Assembly: GCA_030697795.1 (NCBI GenBank)
Contig: JAUYOV010000001.1
Coordinates: 24,486 to 88,485, forward strand
Origin: a bacterium
GTDB lineage: Bacteria > Patescibacteriota > Minisyncoccia > JACQLN01
Direction: 5' to 3'
DNA length: 64,000 nucleotides
The position numbers and the translations under genes were made by a program. A model generated the notes under the pieces. The model saw only the letters and a program-made list of their open reading frames with translations, ran no database searches and was not told where the DNA came from. Shown piece by piece: positions 3,888 to 63,994 of this stretch (positions are counted from its first letter, which is position 1; each line of letters opens with the position of its first letter).

Positions 3888-4464
3888 ATATTATTTTATA
3901 ATCTTTTACGCTTCTATCTGCCCAGGCTTTTGTAATCTCGTCGGTTAGTATCGCATATTCTAATCCTTCTTTCATTTCCCGTTCTTGCCATTCATCGGTT
4001 AATTCTTTGCGTACTTCAATACTTTTTAAGCGTTGATTTATCCATTCTTTGCTGTATCCTTTTTGCAAATATGTTTTCATCGCCCTATTAAAAGCTAGTT
4101 CTGGATCTGCTGTTTCTTCTATCCGTTCATAGCCAACCTTAGCCAGCCATAATTTAAAAGGTTCTGCTTTTGGGGAAGGGATTGATTGGACTACACGGAG
4201 CAAATCTTCTGTGGAAAAACAGTCTGTTGCATATTTCTTTCCATCAGAAGCTACAAATTTCAGTTGTACGATTTTCTCGTACACCTCACCGCCTTCATCT
4301 TTCAACTTATTCTTTAAATCACTCCAATATCGTTTCGGAATAGTAGAATCAACTAAGACTCCTATTACATCAATAACAGAGAAATACCAAGTTTCTTTTT
4401 TTTCATTATAAAAACGGCGTACTTGCTTTTGGTTAAATAAGACTATTGAATTTGATTTTTTCAT
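3880..4464 (-). CDS. Bro-N (KilA-N/DinD-like) domain protein
   Basis: WYFSVIDVIGVLVDS...KRYWSDLKNKL...KLWLAKVGYERIEE resembles Bro-N/DinD family proteins common on phages and MGEs; 194 aa. Confidence 0.5.
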   Translation of the reverse strand: MKKSNSIVLFNQKQVRRFYNEKKETWYFSVIDVIGVLVDSTIPKRYWSDLKNKLKDEGGEVYEKIVQLKFVASDGKKYATDCFSTEDLLRVVQSIPSPKAEPFKLWLAKVGYERIEETADPELAFNRAMKTYLQKGYSKEWINQRLKSIEVRKELTDEWQEREMKEGLEYAILTDEITKAWADRSVKDYKIIYG

Positions 4465-16307: not shown

Positions 16308-16403
16308 ATTTATCGAAGTGGGACTTCAATAATTTAAGTTTGTAAATTAACAACAACACTCCGACATTCTCAAGAATATTGGAATATTGAAAAAAATTAA
16401 AAT

Positions 16404-16849: not shown

Positions 16850-17452
16850 ATGAAAAGAGTTTTTATTATTCACGGCTACGATGCCACGCCCGAAGACAAT
16901 TGGCTCCCTTGGCTTAAAAAAGAATTGGAAGCTAAAGGATTTGATATTGCGGTGCCCCAGATGCCCGAAGCCGATAACCCAACCTTGGAGAAATGGCTTT
17001 CGCATATTCAACAACTTATCGGCGAGTGCGATGAAAACACTTTTTTGGTCGGCCATAGTTTAGGCACTATAACTATTTTAAGATTTTTAGAAGCTTTGCC
17101 CGAAAACCAAAAAGTTGGCGGAGTTGTTTTGGTAGGCGGTTTTTCTGAATCTTTAAACTTTAAGCCCTTAAAAACATTTACCGAAAAACCGCTTGATTAC
17201 GAAAAAATAAAAAGATCAATAATAACTGACCAAATTAGCACGAGCTTGCGATCGCAAGCTCGTGCTAAAGAAAGAATAGTAGCTATACATTCTACTGATG
17301 ACCCCAGCGTTCCTTTTAGATTCTCCGAAATTATTCGCGACAAGCTTAGCGCGGAACTTATAACTCTGCATGGACTCGGCCATATAAATTGGAAGAGTAA
17401 TTGTCTTGAACTACCACAAGCCTTGGTTGCTATACTCAAAATGAATGAATAA
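16850..17452 (+). CDS. RBBP9/YdeN-like alpha/beta serine hydrolase carrying an in-frame palindromic insertion
   Basis: IIHGYDATPEDNW...GHSLG nucleophile elbow ...HG.GH; a 34-bp perfect palindrome (17235..17268) encodes an extra loop. Confidence 0.65.
   Translation: MKRVFIIHGYDATPEDNWLPWLKKELEAKGFDIAVPQMPEADNPTLEKWLSHIQQLIGECDENTFLVGHSLGTITILRFLEALPENQKVGGVVLVGGFSESLNFKPLKTFTEKPLDYEKIKRSIITDQISTSLRSQARAKERIVAIHSTDDPSVPFRFSEIIRDKLSAELITLHGLGHINWKSNCLELPQALVAILKMNE
17235..17268. repeat. perfect palindrome centred on CGATCG, intragenic and in-frame (copy 1)
   Basis: ttagcacgagcttgcgatcgcaagctcgtgctaa; near-identical copy at 63476..63507; related palindrome at 19481..19516. Confidence 0.9.
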
Positions 17453-19013
17453 AGAAAATTTGTACAAAATTCTGCCGATTGCTGCCTTGCTGGCCTTGGC
17501 TGTTTTTTTTGCTTTTTATTACCCGCCTACTGTCGGCATAGATAATTATTACCACATCAGACACGCTTGGATTTATCAAACTCAAGGAATCTTTAATAGC
17601 GATTTTCCTTGGCTGGAAAATTCCGTTATTGGGAAACTAGGTGGCGATATTTGGTATGGTTTCCATATATTACTTATTCCTTTCACTTTCTTTACAGATC
17701 TTCTTTTGGGAATTAAGCTTGCAACTGTAGCTATTATTTTTTTCGCACTATTTGCAGTTTATTTTATATTTAAAAAATTTAATATTCGCTGGCCATTTCT
17801 ATGGACTATATTTTTCTTTTTTTCTGTACCTGATGTTCATTTTAGATTAATGATGCTTCGCCCACATGTTTTAACCTTGGCTTTATTAGCTATAATATTC
17901 TACTTGTTAGTACAAAAGAAATTTGGTAAATCAATTTTTATTACTTCGGCTCTAGCTTCATTTATACATATTTCTCTTTTATGGTTACCCCTGCTTATAG
18001 CTTTTGTTATTTTTATTTTCCAAAAAATATTCGAAAAGCGTTGGGAAATTAAAAATAATATTTATTTATTCGCTGGTTTAATTTTTGGTGTAATTTTAAG
18101 GCCAAACGCTCTATCTTCCCTAAAACTTGCCTATATTCAGGTTATTCAACTAAGTTTAGAAAAGTTAAATAACGCACCTTTAAGATTTGGCACAGAACTT
18201 CGTCCTGGCAATGATCTAAGTATACTTTTATTCGAAATTTTACCAATATCTTTAATTGTTATAGCAAGCATTGTTAGTTTGGCAATCTTTTTAAGAAAGA
18301 GAAAAATTAGTTTAGAAAATCAAGAAAAAACCGTTATATGGAGTTTAGTTACCTTTTTTATAATCTTTGGCGTATTGTTTTATACTTTTGCCCGCCGTAC
18401 TGCCGATATCTGGGTTTTATTTTCTATATTACTAGCTGCAGTAGCTTTTTCTATGGTTTTAAAAAATAACGAAATATATTTAAAGTTTAAAAAAATATTT
18501 TTAACTATATTTTTTGTGGTAATAATTGGTTTTGGCGCTCAAACATTAAGAATTGTTTCTGGTTACATTTCTGGCTTGCCACCACAAAATATGTTTAAGG
18601 AATCTGCCAACTGGCTCAAAGAAAATAGTGAAAAAGGAGATATTGTTTTTAATACTCGTTGGGATAATTTTTCTTTTATGTTTTTTTGGAACCAACATAA
18701 TCATTTTATAAATGGCATGGATCCAATATTCGAATATTCAAACAATAAAAGCTTATATCTACAGCATTACTTTTTAGAGATAGATAAAATCTTAATGGTG
18801 AATGGCGAAGCCTACACTTGTGGTGCTAACCCTTGCCAAGAAGGTGCTGTAAGCACGGTTTACGATTCGTTAAAAAATAACTTTAAAGCAAAATATATAT
18901 TTGTGGAACCTGCCAGAAATCCTATGCTCTATAAATTTTTAGATTCCAATAAACATTTCGATAAAGTTTTTGATGCTAGAAATAGCTTAGAAATTGTTTT
19001 CAAAGTTTTATGA
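17445..19013 (+). CDS. polytopic membrane protein, putative GT-C-fold glycosyltransferase (paralog 1)
   Basis: 522 aa, ~12 TM segments then a soluble Cys-containing C-terminal domain; D.YYH motif near the N-terminus; paralogous to the next gene. Confidence 0.45.
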   Translation: MNKENLYKILPIAALLALAVFFAFYYPPTVGIDNYYHIRHAWIYQTQGIFNSDFPWLENSVIGKLGGDIWYGFHILLIPFTFFTDLLLGIKLATVAIIFFALFAVYFIFKKFNIRWPFLWTIFFFFSVPDVHFRLMMLRPHVLTLALLAIIFYLLVQKKFGKSIFITSALASFIHISLLWLPLLIAFVIFIFQKIFEKRWEIKNNIYLFAGLIFGVILRPNALSSLKLAYIQVIQLSLEKLNNAPLRFGTELRPGNDLSILLFEILPISLIVIASIVSLAIFLRKRKISLENQEKTVIWSLVTFFIIFGVLFYTFARRTADIWVLFSILLAAVAFSMVLKNNEIYLKFKKIFLTIFFVVIIGFGAQTLRIVSGYISGLPPQNMFKESANWLKENSEKGDIVFNTRWDNFSFMFFWNQHNHFINGMDPIFEYSNNKSLYLQHYFLEIDKILMVNGEAYTCGANPCQEGAVSTVYDSLKNNFKAKYIFVEPARNPMLYKFLDSNKHFDKVFDARNSLEIVFKVL

Positions 19014-20569
19014 AAACTCTAATTCCAGTTTTATTTTTTTTATTACTTTCAATAGTTTTTAATTTTTCCTCACCCAATATCCCCGACCCCGATTCTTTTT
19101 ATCATATTGCGCACGCTAAAATTTACCGCACCGAAGGAATAACTTTTAAAGAATTTCCTTGGACACAGTTTTCGACCATCAAACAATATTCTGCCGACCT
19201 TTGGTATGGTTTTCATATTTTATTGATTCCTTTCTCTTACTTTTCCGGAACACTTGGCATTAAACTTGCTGGGGTTTTGTTAACATTTTTTGTTTTACAC
19301 TCTCTGTTTTTTGTTTTAAAAAAACTGAATGTTGTTTATTCTGGGCTTTGGACATTTCTGGCTTTTGTTTCGGCACCTAACATATTAAACCGCCTGCTTA
19401 TGATGCGGCCGCATCTTTTATCTTTAGCTTTAATCATCTTGATTTTTTATTATCTGACACACCACAAAAATCAAGTAACACATACACTGAGCATACGATC
19501 GTATGCTCAGTGTATGATAATTTTTACCCTTTCATTTTTAGTCTCATGGATACATTTAAGCTTAGTTTGGATTCCCGTGATGGTTTTTGGAATAGTATTT
19601 TTAATTAAACTAATTATCGAGAAAACTTGGTTCTGGCGCGAAGGCTTGGTTTTATTAGCCGGTAGCATAACAGGCTGGTTGGCTAGGCCAAACCCTATTG
19701 GAGCCATAAAACTTGCCTACATTCAAGTGATAGAGCTTATGCTTCAAAAACAACAAGAAGTTACACTTCTTTTTGGGCGAGAAATCTTTCCTTTAGCACT
19801 CCAGACTCTTTTCCAAAACTTCTCTGCATTTGTGATTCTATGGTTTTTTGCCATAGTGGTTTTAATCTTGCTGATCAAAAAACATACCAACATACTTGAG
19901 AATGTTGGTATGTTATCTTCGGGCATAATATCTATAATATTTTTTATCTTAACTTTAACCACCGCTCGCCGTTCGCACGATATCTGGATTCCTTTTGGCA
20001 TAATTTTTATTGCGTTAGTGTTAAGCGAAGCACTTAAACTAAATAAAAAAAATAGTTTATATTACATAACTATTTTTATAACAGGCTTAGTCACAATATT
20101 TTTAACAATTTATACTCCCTATAAAAATAGTACTAGCTTAAAAGAAAACGCTATAAAACCAACTAAATTCAAAGAAGCGGCACTATGGCTAAAAGAAAAT
20201 TCCCAACCAAAAGATATTGTTTTTAATGTACGCTGGAGCGATTTTCCCATGCTTTTTTATTGGAACAATAAAAATTATTATATTGGGGGTATGGATCCTA
20301 TATTCCAATATTCTTTTGATAAAAATCTCTATTGGAAATTTCACTATATTTCGGTAGACGAAGTCACTAAATATACTTGTGCCACCCCTGCTTGCACCAA
20401 AGAGATGCTTGTAGATACCTATACAGTTTTAAAAAACGATTTTAAGGCCAAGTATGTATTTTTAGAAAAACAAAGAAACCCGCTTTTTTATTATTATCTA
20501 GAATCAACTCCAAAACACTACGCCAAGAAAATAGATACCTTAGCCGAAGCGGTTTATGAAATAAAATAA
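19010..20569 (+). CDS. polytopic membrane protein, putative GT-C-fold glycosyltransferase (paralog 2) with two in-frame repeat insertions
   Basis: 519 aa, same architecture as paralog 1; contains the 36-bp palindrome at 19481..19516 and a module-A hairpin copy at 19881..19917, both in-frame. Confidence 0.45.
   Translation: MKTLIPVLFFLLLSIVFNFSSPNIPDPDSFYHIAHAKIYRTEGITFKEFPWTQFSTIKQYSADLWYGFHILLIPFSYFSGTLGIKLAGVLLTFFVLHSLFFVLKKLNVVYSGLWTFLAFVSAPNILNRLLMMRPHLLSLALIILIFYYLTHHKNQVTHTLSIRSYAQCMIIFTLSFLVSWIHLSLVWIPVMVFGIVFLIKLIIEKTWFWREGLVLLAGSITGWLARPNPIGAIKLAYIQVIELMLQKQQEVTLLFGREIFPLALQTLFQNFSAFVILWFFAIVVLILLIKKHTNILENVGMLSSGIISIIFFILTLTTARRSHDIWIPFGIIFIALVLSEALKLNKKNSLYYITIFITGLVTIFLTIYTPYKNSTSLKENAIKPTKFKEAALWLKENSQPKDIVFNVRWSDFPMLFYWNNKNYYIGGMDPIFQYSFDKNLYWKFHYISVDEVTKYTCATPACTKEMLVDTYTVLKNDFKAKYVFLEKQRNPLFYYYLESTPKHYAKKIDTLAEAVYEIK
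19481..19516. repeat. 36-bp perfect palindrome centred on CGATCG, intragenic and in-frame (family member 2)
   Basis: catacactgagcatacgatcgtatgctcagtgtatg; each half is related to the 17235 palindrome (cacgagcttg|CGATCG vs cactgagcata|CGATCG); encodes about 12 aa extra relative to paralog 1. Confidence 0.85.
19881..19917. repeat. module-A hairpin repeat copy inside a coding sequence
   Basis: aacataccaacatacttgagaatgttggtatgttatc, ~30/34 identical to intergenic module A; encodes NILENVGML. Confidence 0.6.
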
Positions 20570-55052: not shown

Positions 55053-55188
55053 ACCAACTTGATCGAACACTCGGTGTTTGATCAGGAGAATTTAAACAAA
55101 AAATAAAGCGGGTATGCATTATGCATCCCGCTATTTTTATTAAAATATTCTCATATTCTTGAGAATGTGAGAATATTTTTGTGCTTGG

Positions 55189-61043: not shown

Positions 61044-61424
61044 ATGGCTTTAACAAAAATAGTAATCGGCGTATTAATAGGCGGGGTTTTGGCTTTGGTG
61101 GGCTATGGCATTTACGATTATCGCCAGCCGGGTAAACTAGACGGCTTGGCCCAATGTATAAAAGATAGTGGCGCCATTTTTTACGGCGCTTTCTGGTGTC
61201 CGCACTGTCAAAATCAAAAAAAGATGTTTGGTAAATCAGATAGGCTTTTACCATATGTAGAATGTTCCTTACCGAGCGGACAAGGTCAAAATCAAACTTG
61301 CGCAGATAAAAAAATAGAAGGCTACCCTACTTGGGAGTTTAAAGATAGCACTCGGGCCACTAAAGTATTTTCTTTAGGAGAACTAGCCGAGAAAACTGCT
61401 TGCCCGCTACCCGAACCAAAATAG
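61044..61424 (+). CDS. membrane-anchored thioredoxin-fold protein (DsbA-like, WCPHC active site)
   Basis: N-terminal TM; FWCPHCQNQKK CxxC motif. Confidence 0.6.
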   Translation: MALTKIVIGVLIGGVLALVGYGIYDYRQPGKLDGLAQCIKDSGAIFYGAFWCPHCQNQKKMFGKSDRLLPYVECSLPSGQGQNQTCADKKIEGYPTWEFKDSTRATKVFSLGELAEKTACPLPEPK

Positions 61425-61427
61425 CCA

Positions 61428-61940
61428 ATGATAGATTCTGTTAACTTTATTCTTTCTGTTTTTGCTGTTATTGCTCAAATAGCCATAGTGTTTTTAATTG
61501 TGGCCAAAATAACTAAAAACCAATCTATTTTAAAATTTGTTAACGAAAAAGTTTTAATATTATCTTTGGTAATCGTTTTGGGCGGAATATTTGGCAGTTT
61601 ATTTTATTCGGAAATTGCCGGTTACGCGCCTTGCTCTTTATGTTGGTGGCAAAGAGTTTTTTTGTATCCGCAAGCTATTATTTTGGGTTTGGCTTTAATA
61701 AAAAAGGATTTGGCTGTAACTCGTTATATTAAAACCCTGTCTTTATTTGGATTAGTTATCTCGGCCTATCAATCGCTTTTACAAATGGGTTTGGTGCCAT
61801 CTATAATATGTGGCACTAGTTCTATAAGTTGCGCTCAAAGATATTTTATAAATTTTGGTTATATAACTTTACCTTTAATGGGCTTTACCGCTTTTTTGCT
61901 TTTAACTATCTTAAACTGGAACCCCGCCCTTGAAGACTAA
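61428..61940 (+). CDS. disulfide bond formation protein B (DsbB/BdbC family)
   Basis: 4 TM; CSLCWWQR first Cys pair and a second Cys pair (CGTSSISC) in the second loop, as in BdbC. Confidence 0.65.
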   Translation: MIDSVNFILSVFAVIAQIAIVFLIVAKITKNQSILKFVNEKVLILSLVIVLGGIFGSLFYSEIAGYAPCSLCWWQRVFLYPQAIILGLALIKKDLAVTRYIKTLSLFGLVISAYQSLLQMGLVPSIICGTSSISCAQRYFINFGYITLPLMGFTAFLLLTILNWNPALED

Positions 61941-62572: not shown

Positions 62573-62637
62573 AAACAAACCCAGCACCTTTTGTTTAAAA
62601 AGGTGCTGGGTCTTTTAATAATTACTAACTACTACGT

Positions 62638-63475: not shown

Positions 63476-63507
63476 TAGCACGAGCTTGCGATCGCAAGCT
63501 CGTGCTA
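63476..63507. repeat. 32-bp perfect palindrome centred on CGATCG, intergenic copy
   Basis: tagcacgagcttgcgatcgcaagctcgtgcta, identical core to 17235..17268; lies just downstream of a minus-strand gene, next to the hairpin cccgcatcttttt..aaaaaggtgcggg. Confidence 0.9.
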
Positions 63508-63535: not shown

Positions 63536-63994
63536 TTAAAATCCAGCTGGCGGGCCAGTAGGTATTCCTGCGGGCGGCCCAAATTGAGTTCCGGCTGGTG
63601 GACCAAACTGGGTACTGGCAGGCGGGCCAAAAGACCCGCCCGAGGGCGCGCCGCTCTTTTCCATTTGTTCCTTAACTTTTTGCTGTATAATATTTTGAAT
63701 TTGTTCCTGTGACGGCGGACCGTTCTTCATCATTTCCGGTGTAACTTCTACACCTTTAGGCAACATTTTTTGTATATCTTCGGCAGATGGAGGACCCTTT
63801 TTTAACATTTCTGGCGAAACATCAACGCCTTTTGGAATCATCTTTTGTATATCTTCAGCCGAGGGCGGACCACTCTGACCCTCAAACCCTGCGGGGGCAC
63901 CGCCTTCAAAACCGGCCGGCGGTTTCATTAACTTAGAAAAGCATTGCCCCATCGCTTCACCCACAGATTTATCTGGAATACCGCCCGATTTCAT
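63536..63994 (-). CDS. Pro/Gly-rich tandem-repeat protein
   Basis: Repeats GPPSAEDIQKM(I/L)PKGV(D/E)V(S/T)PEM(L/M)KKGPP and FGPPAGTQ; start 6 nt from the window edge. Confidence 0.35.
   Translation of the reverse strand: MKSGGIPDKSVGEAMGQCFSKLMKPPAGFEGGAPAGFEGQSGPPSAEDIQKMIPKGVDVSPEMLKKGPPSAEDIQKMLPKGVEVTPEMMKNGPPSQEQIQNIIQQKVKEQMEKSGAPSGGSFGPPASTQFGPPAGTQFGPPAGIPTGPPAGF

What the first reader, a model, noticed from the sequence alone, without database searches (positions are those of the whole stretch)
17235..17268. Family of perfect palindromes centred on CGATCG, inserted in-frame inside coding sequences
Three perfect palindromes belong to one family: 34 bp at 17235 inside the YdeN-like hydrolase gene, 36 bp at 19481 inside GT-C paralog 2, and 32 bp at 63476 in intergenic space. 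The half-site consensus is CAC-(T)GAGC-(A)T(T/A)(G/A)-CGATCG. The two intragenic copies keep the reading frame and add ~11-12 residues that are absent from the paralogous gene 17445..19013. This resembles in-frame insertion of selfish palindromic elements, as in Rickettsia palindromic elements, and its functional consequence is unknown. The core GCGATCGC also equals the cyanobacterial HIP1 octamer.
Basis: seen in the sequence. Interest (0 to 1): 0.65.

Follow-up and report, generated by a model that had tools for sequence, protein, structure and literature searches.

The report
Dispersed 34-bp perfect palindromes in Patescibacteria
The three palindromes are real copies of a short repeated DNA element found in several ultra-small (Patescibacteria/CPR) bacteria. 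The element has been copied between genes and, in frame, into working genes, and it always brackets the gene of a small DNA-binding protein that probably recognises it.

Summary
Window positions 17235-17268, 19481-19516 and 63476-63507 are perfect palindromes of 34, 36 and 32 bp. None of 200 simulated windows reached 32 bp.

They belong to one ungapped family of about 34 bp: RTAnCMY-GAGC-WTR-CGA|TCG-YAW-GCTC-RKGnTAY. More than 130 distinct copies turned up in Patescibacteria MAGs and groundwater metagenomes, and none in viral contigs.

The variable stem positions co-vary strictly as Watson-Crick pairs, both across copies and at orthologous sites. G·U pairs are not enriched, which points to a DNA-level constraint.

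Most copies lie just 3' of genes. About 10-20% sit in frame inside genes: Ser_hydrolase, the GT-C-like membrane protein, MnmA, TsaD, RsmA and UvrC. Orthologue alignments show the window's hydrolase copy is a private 16-residue insertion. The paralog-2 copy is an older 14-residue insertion shared by a sub-clade.

A new lead emerged. A conserved 190-aa protein with a wHTH and a Cas2-like domain ("mini-PaaX") has its gene bracketed by cognate palindromes in 15 of 16 loci. The upstream copy abuts an extended -10 promoter. The window's MAG carries three paralogues.

The resemblance to HIP1 is coincidental. The best reading is a REP/RPE-like mobile palindrome that serves as the mini-PaaX recognition site. 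How it moves is unresolved.

The parts
17235..17268 (.). Family-A perfect palindrome (34 bp) inside the Ser_hydrolase gene. It encodes ISTSLRSQARAK in the CGA|TCG phase.
   Evidence: RNA hairpin -27 kcal/mol, z = -6.6.
17222..17269 (+). The 48-bp (16-codon) lineage-specific insertion in the hydrolase, residues 125-140 (ITDQISTSLRSQARAK). It is the palindrome plus about 13 extra bp on its 5' side.
   Evidence: Alignment A1 of 27 orthologues. Codon-level comparison with the syntenic empty site in L021.
16850..17452 (+). Host gene 1: alpha/beta serine hydrolase (Pfam PF06821 Ser_hydrolase, E = 3.8e-25), 200 aa. Orthologues are typically 183-190 aa.
19481..19516 (.). Family-A perfect palindrome (36 bp) inside membrane-protein paralog 2. 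It encodes HTLSIRSYAQCM in the CGA|TCG phase.
19457..19516 (+). Expanded loop of paralog 2, residues 150-169. It is 14 residues longer than in paralog 1 and in most homologues. The orthologues in L021, L047 and P0241 carry a co-evolved palindrome at the same site.
19010..20569 (+). Host gene 2: 519-aa multi-pass membrane protein, paralog 2.
63476..63507 (.). Family-A perfect palindrome (32 bp), intergenic. It lies 29 bp downstream of the stop of the minus-strand gene 63536-63994. A T-run follows on the + strand only. Locus L012 holds an orthologous copy.
61420..61432 (.). Empty site. This is the tight junction between two co-directional genes. In the syntenic locus L002 (6625-6664) the same junction holds a 40-bp family-A palindrome within a 55-bp spacer.

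Best explanation
The window's three palindromes are copies of a roughly 34-bp perfect-palindrome repeat element. I found it only in Patescibacteria-type genomes.

Shown:
- The element has a defined extent of 17 bp per arm. It has an invariant inner core (GAGC-WTR-CGATCG-YAW-GCTC), a conserved T/A at position 16, and five variable positions per arm that are always complementary to the other arm.
- Copies have been added to genomes over evolutionary time. There are filled and empty orthologous sites, and identical 32-mers at unrelated loci.
- Most copies lie within about 100 bp after a stop codon.
- A minority lie inside genes. There, only length-compatible insertions in tolerant loops survive, nearly always read in the CGA|TCG phase as (S/T)-(L/I/M)-R-S-(Q/Y/H)-A.
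- Once in place, copies persist at orthologous sites. They change by mirrored substitutions in both arms.

Inferred:
- The element is the recognition site of a conserved dimeric 190-aa protein (wHTH plus Cas2-like domain, 'mini-PaaX').
- That protein represses its own gene through the upstream copy, which sits directly against an extended -10 promoter.
- The protein can presumably bind the dispersed copies too.
- The strict Watson-Crick symmetry, including the central CGATCG and without G·U tolerance, reflects a DNA-level constraint. That constraint could be symmetric dimer binding and/or hairpin or cruciform formation with arm-to-arm correction. It does not look like an RNA structure.

The insertion mechanism itself is not resolved. 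Overall the system behaves like REP/REPIN-RAYT or RPE elements, but with a different partner protein.
For: Family and extent:
- 20 perfect palindromes in 12 Patescibacteria loci from a scan of 185,579 species genomes.
- More than 120 further loci in metagenomes. None in viral contigs.
- The position profile shows complementarity of 0.86-0.91 at variable positions 11-16, falling to the 0.26 background beyond position 18-20.
- Covariation score is 0.416 against 0.141 in shuffles (0 of 500 reach it). There are 3-4 Watson-Crick pair types per variable pair, and G·U is not enriched.

Insertion:
- The hydrolase segment is absent in 22 of 26 aligned orthologues and in the closest syntenic one.
- The paralog-2 segment is absent in paralog 1, in L016 and in almost all representatives.
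- The MnmA insertion is unique among 120 homologues.
- An intergenic site is filled in L002 and empty in the window.
- The window holds two identical 32-mers. One MAG holds five identical TAGCACGAGCTTACGA arms.

Persistence with mirrored change:
- Orthologous sites show 73 paired changes against 39 other differences.
- Between the window and L021 in paralog 2, four or five arm positions are changed in mirror image.

Partner protein:
- The gene is flanked upstream and downstream in 4 of 4 loci fetched by protein alone.
- It is flanked in 15 of 16 loci overall. A TGnTATAAT-type -10 lies 6-10 bp beyond the upstream copy.
- The inner core is identical upstream and downstream in 12 of 15 loci, although it differs between loci.
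- Pfam PaaX_M matches at E about 1e-24.
- The AF2 model (pLDDT 84.6) has a C-terminal domain matching Cas2, VapD and PaaX folds.
- There are 530 homologues, several per MAG. Three are in the window's MAG.
Against: - No binding or activity data exist. The protein-site link rests on gene neighbourhood, promoter geometry and homology to PaaX repressors.
- The window itself contains no mini-PaaX gene.
- Most dispersed copies are not next to promoters, so a classical regulon is not evident.
- A dimeric reader explains symmetry at recognised positions. It does not obviously explain why variable positions differ between copies within one genome yet stay symmetric.
- No target-site duplication, fixed insert length or transposase was found. 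The inserts are 42, 48, about 51 and about 63 bp.
- The strict search pattern hit only about five species representatives. Breadth across Patescibacteria rests on divergent core variants seen next to mini-PaaX genes.
Confidence: 0.55

Rival explanations
1. A purely selfish miniature palindromic element (RPE- or MITE-like), moved by an unidentified transposase or by host replication/repair. It has no dedicated reader. The mini-PaaX genes are simply flanked by hairpins that act as transcriptional insulators or terminators.
For: - In-frame insertions into unrelated housekeeping genes.
- Presence/absence at orthologous sites.
- Identical copies.
- Contigs often break at copies.
- Most copies are not promoter-associated.
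Against: - The bracketing of mini-PaaX genes is near-universal (15 of 16 loci). It is position-specific: the upstream copy abuts the -10 and the downstream copy overlaps the stop codon. The core variant matches per gene.
- Copies persist at orthologous sites across about 30% protein divergence with maintained symmetry. That is unusual for junk.
- No transposase was found nearby. A DDE gene in L014 is unrelated to the copies.
Confidence: 0.2
2. An RNA-level element. The hairpins act in transcripts as intrinsic or bidirectional terminators, RNase III sites or protein-binding stem-loops. They are conserved for RNA structure.
For: - Very stable hairpins, -26 to -27 kcal/mol, z about -7.
- Median position about 35 bp after stop codons, with an excess of convergent over divergent contexts, 18 versus 10.
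- Flanks are modestly T-rich at +19/+20.
- The 63476 copy scores as terminator-like on the + strand.
Against: - The central 6 bp, which would be the loop, is the most conserved and most symmetric part.
- G·U pairs are no commoner than other mismatches.
- The T-run is weak or absent in most copies. For the 63476 copy it is on the strand opposite to the neighbouring genes.
- Copies inside essential coding sequences would terminate or cleave their own mRNA.
- There is no Rfam match.
Confidence: 0.1
3. Static cis-regulatory sites (operators, or parS/matS-like chromosome-organising sites) that evolved in place, with no copy-and-insert history.
For: - The upstream copies sit in operator position.
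- Sites are conserved at orthologous positions.
- parS-type palindromes are known to lie inside genes (established knowledge).
Against: - The intragenic copies are extra sequence relative to orthologues, +14 to +21 codons, not recoded pre-existing codons.
- A tight 3-bp gene junction in the window is a 55-bp spacer with a palindrome in L002.
- 32 of 32 bp are identical between unrelated loci.
Confidence: 0.07
4. HIP1-like oligonucleotide enrichment, driven by a CGATCG/GATC methyltransferase and repair bias as proposed for cyanobacteria.
For: The centre contains CGATCG. Two window copies contain GCGATCGC.
Against: - GCGATCGC occurs 3 times in 64 kb, and only one of those is outside the palindromes.
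- CGATCG occurs 7 times against 5.1 expected.
- 65% of copies have ACGATCGT at the centre.
- The conserved unit is 34 bp, not 8 bp.
- The host is Patescibacteria, not a cyanobacterium.
Confidence: 0.02
5. An assembly or sequencing artefact, such as fold-back chimeras.
For: Palindromes can arise from library artefacts. Contigs often end at copies.
Against: - The same family appears in independent projects and assemblers.
- It appears at orthologous sites in different genomes.
- Reading frames are preserved through the copies in conserved genes.
Confidence: 0.01

Closest known systems
REP/REPIN elements with their RAYT genes (Bertels & Rainey, PMC3116915; PMC3337134)
   Same: - Short (20-40 bp) palindromic repeats dispersed mostly outside genes, often just 3' of genes.
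- A conserved, vertically inherited single-gene partner whose gene is itself flanked by the cognate repeats.
- Several partner paralogues per genome, each with its own repeat variant.
- Long persistence at orthologous sites.
   Different: - The partner is a wHTH plus Cas2-like (PaaX-type) protein, not a Y1 HUH transposase.
- The palindromes are perfect through the centre, with no loop.
- Copies are single, not REPIN doublets.
- Copy number is tens, not hundreds.
- About 10-20% of copies are intragenic.
- There is no GTAG head motif.
Rickettsia palindromic elements (RPE; reviewed in PMC10969869, see also PMC1779305)
   Same: A palindromic repeat that has inserted in frame into many unrelated, functional protein-coding genes of a reduced-genome bacterium. 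It adds a peptide segment in tolerant regions.
   Different: - RPEs are about 100-150 bp imperfect palindromes restricted to Rickettsia.
- Here the unit is 34 bp and perfect.
- It is found in Patescibacteria.
- It is mostly intergenic.
- It is linked to a specific protein gene.
PaaX-family repressors and their palindromic operators (E. coli PaaX, PDB 8a39)
   Same: - An N-terminal wHTH followed by a Cas2-like dimerisation domain.
- A palindromic site overlapping the regulator-controlled promoter.
   Different: - The Patescibacteria protein lacks the PaaX C-terminal ligand domain (190 aa against about 305-316 aa).
- Its sites are 34-bp perfect palindromes.
- The sites are duplicated downstream of the gene and dispersed genome-wide, including inside coding sequence.
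HIP1 (GCGATCGC) of cyanobacteria
   Same: Shares the CGATCG centre. Two window copies contain the full octamer.
   Different: - There is no octamer enrichment.
- The unit is 34 bp.
- The central octamer is ACGATCGT in most copies.
- The phylum is different.
IS200-type minimal insertion sequences
   Same: A unit of about 680 bp. It holds one small gene preceded by a perfect hairpin that can block incoming transcription, and it is followed by a second hairpin of related sequence.
   Different: - No Y1 transposase.
- The unit sits at syntenic positions (mnmA-X-alaS in L005 and L017).
- It shows no sign of recent transposition as a whole.

Membership tests
Rickettsia palindromic elements (RPE) | Repeated palindromic element inserted in frame in functional ORFs | tested here: met
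   Hydrolase, paralog 2, MnmA, TsaD, RsmA and UvrC carry copies with the reading frame preserved.
Rickettsia palindromic elements (RPE) | Element length about 100-150 bp, imperfect palindrome, Rickettsia lineage | tested here: not met
   The unit is 34 bp and perfect. Hosts are Patescibacteria MAGs.
REP/REPIN-RAYT | Short palindromic repeats, mainly extragenic, many copies per genome | tested here: met
   About 80% of copies are intergenic. There are at least 10 copies in the sampled parts of one MAG and 3 in this 64-kb window. Copy number is lower than for classical REPs.
REP/REPIN-RAYT | Partner gene is a Y1 HUH transposase (RAYT) flanked by the repeats | tested here: not met
   The flanked gene matches PaaX_M/Cas2 and has no Y1 transposase family hit. 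Its fold is Cas2/VapD/PaaX-like. The flanking itself is met in 15 of 16 loci.
REP/REPIN-RAYT | Mobile unit is an inverted doublet (REPIN) with a conserved GTAG head | tested here: not met
   Copies are single. Pairs occur only around mini-PaaX genes. There is no conserved GTAG at the flank.
HIP1 | Strong genome-wide over-representation of GCGATCGC (about 1 per kb) | tested here: not met
   3 per 64 kb, two of them inside the palindromes. CGATCG occurs 7 times against 5.1 expected.
MITE (IS-derived) | Terminal inverted repeats plus a target-site duplication of fixed length | tested here: inconclusive
   The whole element is two inverted arms. The conserved TA at positions 15-16 could be a TA duplication. 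However, filled/empty comparisons are too divergent (71-74% identity), and the inserts are of unequal length: 42, 48, about 51 and about 63 bp.
MITE (IS-derived) | A parent autonomous IS with matching ends | tested here: not met
   None was seen in about 700 kb of fetched loci. The only DDE transposase (L014) is not bounded by family copies.
Intrinsic (Rho-independent) terminator | GC-rich hairpin followed by a U-tract on the transcribed strand, located after a gene | tested here: inconclusive
   Hairpin and location are met. The T-run is only weakly enriched (52% T at +19/+20). For 63476-63507 it lies on the non-coding strand. Two of three window copies are inside coding sequence.
PaaX-type repressor/operator pair | wHTH plus Cas2-like middle domain protein | tested here: met
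   PF20803 at E about 1e-24. The AF2 model hits Cas2, VapD and PaaX 8a39.
PaaX-type repressor/operator pair | Palindromic operator overlapping the regulated promoter | tested here: met
   The upstream palindrome ends 6-10 bp before a TGnTATAAT-like -10 in most of 15 loci. Extended -10 motifs are enriched about 10-fold at flanks. Binding itself was not tested.
PaaX-type repressor/operator pair | Protein binds the site; effector-responsive C-terminal domain | not testable with these tools
   Needs EMSA or ChIP. The C-terminal PaaX domain is absent (190 aa).
Integron attC | Imperfect 57-141-bp palindrome with extrahelical bases, adjacent integron integrase | tested here: not met
   The palindromes are perfect and 34 bp. 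No integrase is present in the flanking gene lists.

The most novel reading that the evidence does not exclude
Patescibacteria harbour a REPIN-RAYT-like, vertically inherited 'repeat plus keeper' system built on a different enzyme. In this reading the wHTH/Cas2-like mini-PaaX does more than bind the 34-bp palindromes. It acts on them at the symmetric CGATCG centre, using the invariant Asp at the end of the first strand of the Cas2-like domain. That activity would generate new copies, arm-swapped chimeras, and arm-to-arm homogenisation that keeps every copy a perfect palindrome. It would be a new class of palindrome-mobilising or palindrome-maintaining protein related to Cas2.
Probability: 0.15. 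Interest if true: 0.85.

Novelty: new variant of a known kind. Interest (0 to 1): 0.68.

Why it matters
Patescibacteria have tiny genomes and very few known mobile elements or regulators.

A conserved palindromic repeat has four notable properties here. It spreads to new sites. It survives inside essential genes such as mnmA, tsaD, rsmA and uvrC. It keeps perfect symmetry through mirrored substitutions. It is tied to a multi-copy wHTH/Cas2-like protein.

If confirmed, this would give three things:
- A first candidate cis/trans regulatory or genome-organising module for this phylum.
- A second, independent example of the REP-RAYT type of long-term repeat-host association, with a different protein.
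- A natural system for studying how perfect palindromes are tolerated and maintained.

There are practical consequences too. The copies break metagenome assemblies. They add 14-21 residue segments to proteins that annotation and structure prediction should expect.

Tried and rejected
- Fetching the rest of the window's contig failed. The hydrolase (P0001) and a mini-PaaX of the same MAG (P0139) are not in the gene-position index.
- I looked for a target-site duplication or exact insertion junction. The hydrolase filled/empty pair and the L002/window pair are only 71-74% identical, and both inserts carry about 13 extra bp on one side. This was inconclusive. An all-against-all search for presence/absence among 144 loci gave one usable case.
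- I looked for a close MnmA relative (over 90% identity) lacking the insertion. The nearest is 76% identical.
- The L017 and L018 strain differences turned out to be scaffold gaps (N runs), not element polymorphism.
- I rejected the idea that the outer variable arm is an inverted copy of the target flank. The variable positions fall into recurrent subtypes (TAGCAC, GTATCAC, GTCTCAC and others) shared between unrelated loci.
- Literature searches for the palindrome, CGATCG or PaaX together with Patescibacteria or Saccharibacteria found nothing relevant.
- Rfam gave no family at any copy.
- Viral contigs gave no copy.
Full report
**1.

The window contains perfect palindromes at three sites:
- 17235-17268, 34 bp: TTAGCACGAGCTTGCGA|TCGCAAGCTCGTGCTAA.
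- 19481-19516, 36 bp: CATACACTGAGCATACGA|TCGTATGCTCAGTGTATG.
- 63476-63507, 32 bp, identical to the inner 32 bp of the first.

No other perfect palindrome in the window exceeds 18 bp. In 200 first-order Markov simulations the longest palindrome averaged 17 bp and never exceeded 28 bp.

The window is 37.5% G+C. It holds only three GCGATCGC octamers, two of them inside these palindromes. CGATCG occurs 7 times against 5.1 expected. This is therefore not a HIP1-type genome.

**2. Gene context in the window**

- 16850-17452 encodes a 200-aa alpha/beta hydrolase (Pfam Ser_hydrolase PF06821, E = 3.8e-25).
- 17445-19013 and 19010-20569 encode two paralogous multi-pass membrane proteins of about 520 aa. 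Neither has a Pfam match, so the 'GT-C' label is unverified.
- Both intragenic palindromes are read with a codon boundary at the centre (CGA|TCG = Arg-Ser). They give ISTSLRSQARAK and HTLSIRSYAQCM.
- The third copy lies 29 bp after the stop of the minus-strand gene 63536-63994 and upstream of the next minus-strand gene. Its T-run is on the + strand, so it is not a canonical terminator for its neighbours.

**3. It is a real sequence family, found in Patescibacteria**

I scanned one genome per species (185,579 species) for GAGCWTRCGATCGYAWGCTC(N0-1)GTG. This gave 13 loci:
- 12 are in MAGs labelled Patescibacteria group, Saccharibacteria, Minisyncoccia or 'bacterium'.
- One is a 20-bp chance-like match in a Planctomycetota genome.

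Those loci hold 20 perfect palindromes of 24-46 bp centred on CGATCG.

Viral contigs gave none.

From 121 distinct copies, the element is 17 bp per arm:
- Consensus: R-T-A-n-C-M-Y-GAGC-W-T-R-CGA | TCG-Y-A-W-GCTC-R-K-G-n-T-A-Y.
- The centre octamer is ACGATCGT in 65% of copies and GCGATCGC in 35%.
- Complementarity between arms is 0.86-0.91 at the variable positions 11-16. It falls to the 0.26 background beyond position 18-20.
- No gap is needed to align the window's two subtypes.
- 76 of 125 copies are perfect over all 17 pairs. Another 20 differ only at the edge.

**4. Symmetry is maintained, and at the DNA level**

I aligned 132 distinct copies ascertained by one half-site plus the centre. 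The five variable stem pairs each show three or four Watson-Crick pair types. For example, at columns 8/35 the counts are UA 56, CG 40, GC 25, wobble 3 and unpaired 7.

The covariation score is 0.416 against 0.141 in shuffles (0 of 500 reach it). It is 0.04-0.13 for slid partners.

G·U cells are about one sixth of non-Watson-Crick cells. That is what chance gives, so there is no sign of RNA-type wobble tolerance.

The central six bases would be the loop of an RNA hairpin. Yet they are the most conserved and most symmetric part. One variant changes CGATCG to CTATAG symmetrically.

At orthologous sites, where flanks are 65-89% identical, I counted 73 positions changed in mirror image in both arms, against 39 other differences. 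The clearest cases:
- L001 versus L082: 89% flank identity and one mirrored A:T to G:C change.
- L017 versus L119: five mirrored changes.
- Window paralog 2 versus its L021 orthologue: CATACACTGAGCATACGA|... versus CATATATTTAGTCTACGA|.... Here four or five mirrored changes alter the encoded peptide to HIFSLRSYTKYI.

A minority of copies have several correlated mismatches and look like arm chimeras of two subtypes. An example is L009: GTGTCACGAGCTTACGA|TCGTATGCTCAAGACAC. Imperfect copies are over-represented inside genes.

**5. The intragenic copies are insertions**

Hydrolase:
- Among 27 aligned proteins, most orthologues are 183-190 aa and lack residues 125-140, ITDQISTSLRSQARAK.
- The closest, fully syntenic orthologue (L021; gene order RarA, 143-aa gene, hydrolase, P1, P2, OCD) has an empty site.
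- Three more distant orthologues (P0018, P0024 and P0027; DNA examined in L014 and L016) carry decayed family copies. These sit in the same loop but in a different register: GAGCATGCGA|TCGCAAGCTC and GAGCCTGCGA|ACGCAAGCTC.
- That pattern indicates independent hits in a permissive loop.

Paralog 2:
- The loop is 14 residues longer than in paralog 1, in the L016 homologue and in nearly all of about 57 aligned homologues, which are representatives of clusters at 50% identity.
- Only the near clade (L021, and P0241/L047) shares it. This insertion is therefore old and inherited.

Elsewhere the family sits in frame in MnmA, where it is unique among 120 homologues, and in TsaD, RsmA and UvrC. Six of seven independent intragenic events use the CGA|TCG phase. 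Two of the three phases are open, so this bias is only suggestive.

An intergenic presence/absence case also exists. A 3-bp gene junction at window ~61425 corresponds to a 55-bp spacer with a 40-bp palindrome in L002.

Insert lengths differ: 42, 48, about 51 and about 63 bp. No target-site duplication could be established.

**6. Where the dispersed copies lie**

Of the copies with genes called on both sides:
- 41 are between co-directional genes.
- 18 are between convergent genes.
- 10 are between divergent genes.
- About 19 are intragenic.

In co-directional spacers the median distance is about 35 bp from the upstream stop, against about 100 bp to the next start. Flanks are only mildly T-rich. 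As RNA, the window copies fold at -26 to -27 kcal/mol with z about -7. No Rfam family matches.

**7. A partner protein**

In four palindrome-ascertained loci, a conserved 190-aa gene lay between two family copies about 650 bp apart.

Its features:
- It matches Pfam PaaX_M (the Cas2-like domain) at E about 1e-24, and Cas2 weakly.
- It has 530 homologues at E <= 1e-10, all labelled Patescibacteria-type, with several paralogues per MAG.
- By accession series, three of them (P0131, P0139, P0163) belong to the same MAG as the window's hydrolase P0001.
- The window itself has none.

I then fetched four loci by protein alone, without regard to palindromes. All four have a family palindrome upstream and downstream.

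Over 16 distinct loci:
- 15 have both copies.
- The upstream copy ends 6-10 bp before a TGnTATAAT-like extended -10. Such motifs are about 10-fold enriched at palindrome flanks, mainly because of these loci.
- The downstream copy commonly overlaps the stop codon, with the TGA supplied by the YTGAGC arm.
- The inner core (GAGN-NNN) is the same upstream and downstream in 12 of 15 loci, although at least seven variants exist between loci.

An AlphaFold model (pLDDT 84.6) shows an N-terminal helical and beta-wing domain alignable to the PaaX wHTH. Its C-terminal ferredoxin-like domain has best PDB matches to Cas2, VapD and PaaX. An Asp at the end of the first strand of the C-domain is invariant in 45 sequences. 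Whether it is catalytic is unknown.

**8. Interpretation**

The evidence best fits a REP/RPE-like mobile palindrome that is also the recognition site of the mini-PaaX proteins.
- Shown: family, extent, dispersal, insertions, persistence, mirrored evolution, and gene bracketing with promoter geometry.
- Inferred: binding, autorepression, and a DNA-level cause of symmetry.
- Unknown: how new copies are made.

Rival readings are weighed in the rival section. These are a purely selfish element, an RNA hairpin or terminator, static operators, HIP1-type enrichment and artefact. The last two are essentially excluded.

**9. Novelty**

Full-text searches found no description of this family, nor of PaaX-like proteins in these bacteria. 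The library is incomplete, so this is not proof of novelty.

The behaviour matches two known kinds, REP-RAYT (PMC3116915, PMC3337134) and RPE (PMC10969869, PMC1779305). It fails the defining features of both: there is no Y1 transposase, no doublets, and the unit is 34 bp and perfect. I file it as a new variant of a known kind.

Noticed in passing
window 19881-19914, 55142-55179, 16355-16395; L021 8146-8183 and 11718-11751; L014 3563-3590 and ~3908-3950: A second palindrome family, 'B' (..AACATTCYCACATTCTGCAGAATGTGRGAATGTT..). Its centre is CTGCAG in L021 and L014, and CTTGAG and imperfect in the window.

It occupies orthologous sites in the window and L021. One site is the RarA/143-aa spacer. 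The other is in frame in paralog 2 around residue 290 (peptide NILENVGML). Paralog 2 therefore carries copies of two different palindrome families.
   Followed up: partly
window 1-~240 (minus strand, cut by the window start); L014 3600-3905; L069 880-1152: A roughly 101-aa ArsR/MarR-type wHTH gene. In L014 it is flanked on both sides by family-B palindromes. In L069 it is flanked by two identical related hairpins. This mirrors the mini-PaaX/family-A arrangement. The window's homologue is truncated and shows no clear upstream palindrome.
   Followed up: partly
L001 6222-6794, L005 4479-5051, L017 10001-10588, L019 10001-10573, L023 4001-4570, L024 4001-4573: The 190-aa wHTH plus Cas2-like 'mini-PaaX' gene family. 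It has several paralogues per genome. Some sit in conserved synteny (mnmA-X-alaS in L005 and L017). Each is bracketed by cognate family-A palindromes.
   Followed up: yes
metagenome loci L048, L061, L065, L070, L075, L080, L087, L101 (copies within ~30 bp of a contig end): Many short metagenome contigs begin or end at a family-A copy. This suggests the repeat, or its palindromic nature, breaks short-read assemblies of these genomes.
   Followed up: no
L017 15660-16090 / L018 15900-16270: A direct repeat of about 73 bp (AATCAGCTTCACTAGCTTCGTTAGCTTGTTAGGTCAGAACC...) lies on both sides of a very small gene next to the ribosomal-protein cluster. Scaffold gaps (N runs) sit at the repeat. It is unrelated to family A.
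   Followed up: no
window 62574-62616: An ordinary imperfect hairpin with a 5-nt loop and T/A runs on both sides. It looks like a bidirectional terminator. It shows the genome also uses conventional hairpins that lack the loop-less perfect symmetry of families A and B.
   Followed up: no
window 63536-63994 (minus strand, runs off the window end): The gene upstream of the third palindrome encodes a Pro/Gly-rich protein with tandem repeats of about 20 residues (GPPSAEDIQKM[IL]PKGV[DE]V[ST]PEM[LM]KKG). Function unknown.
   Followed up: no
L014 4305-5003 / L015 422-1120: A DDE_Tnp_1 transposase gene lies about 1 kb upstream of the hydrolase orthologue that carries a decayed family-A copy. It is not bounded by family palindromes.
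   Followed up: no
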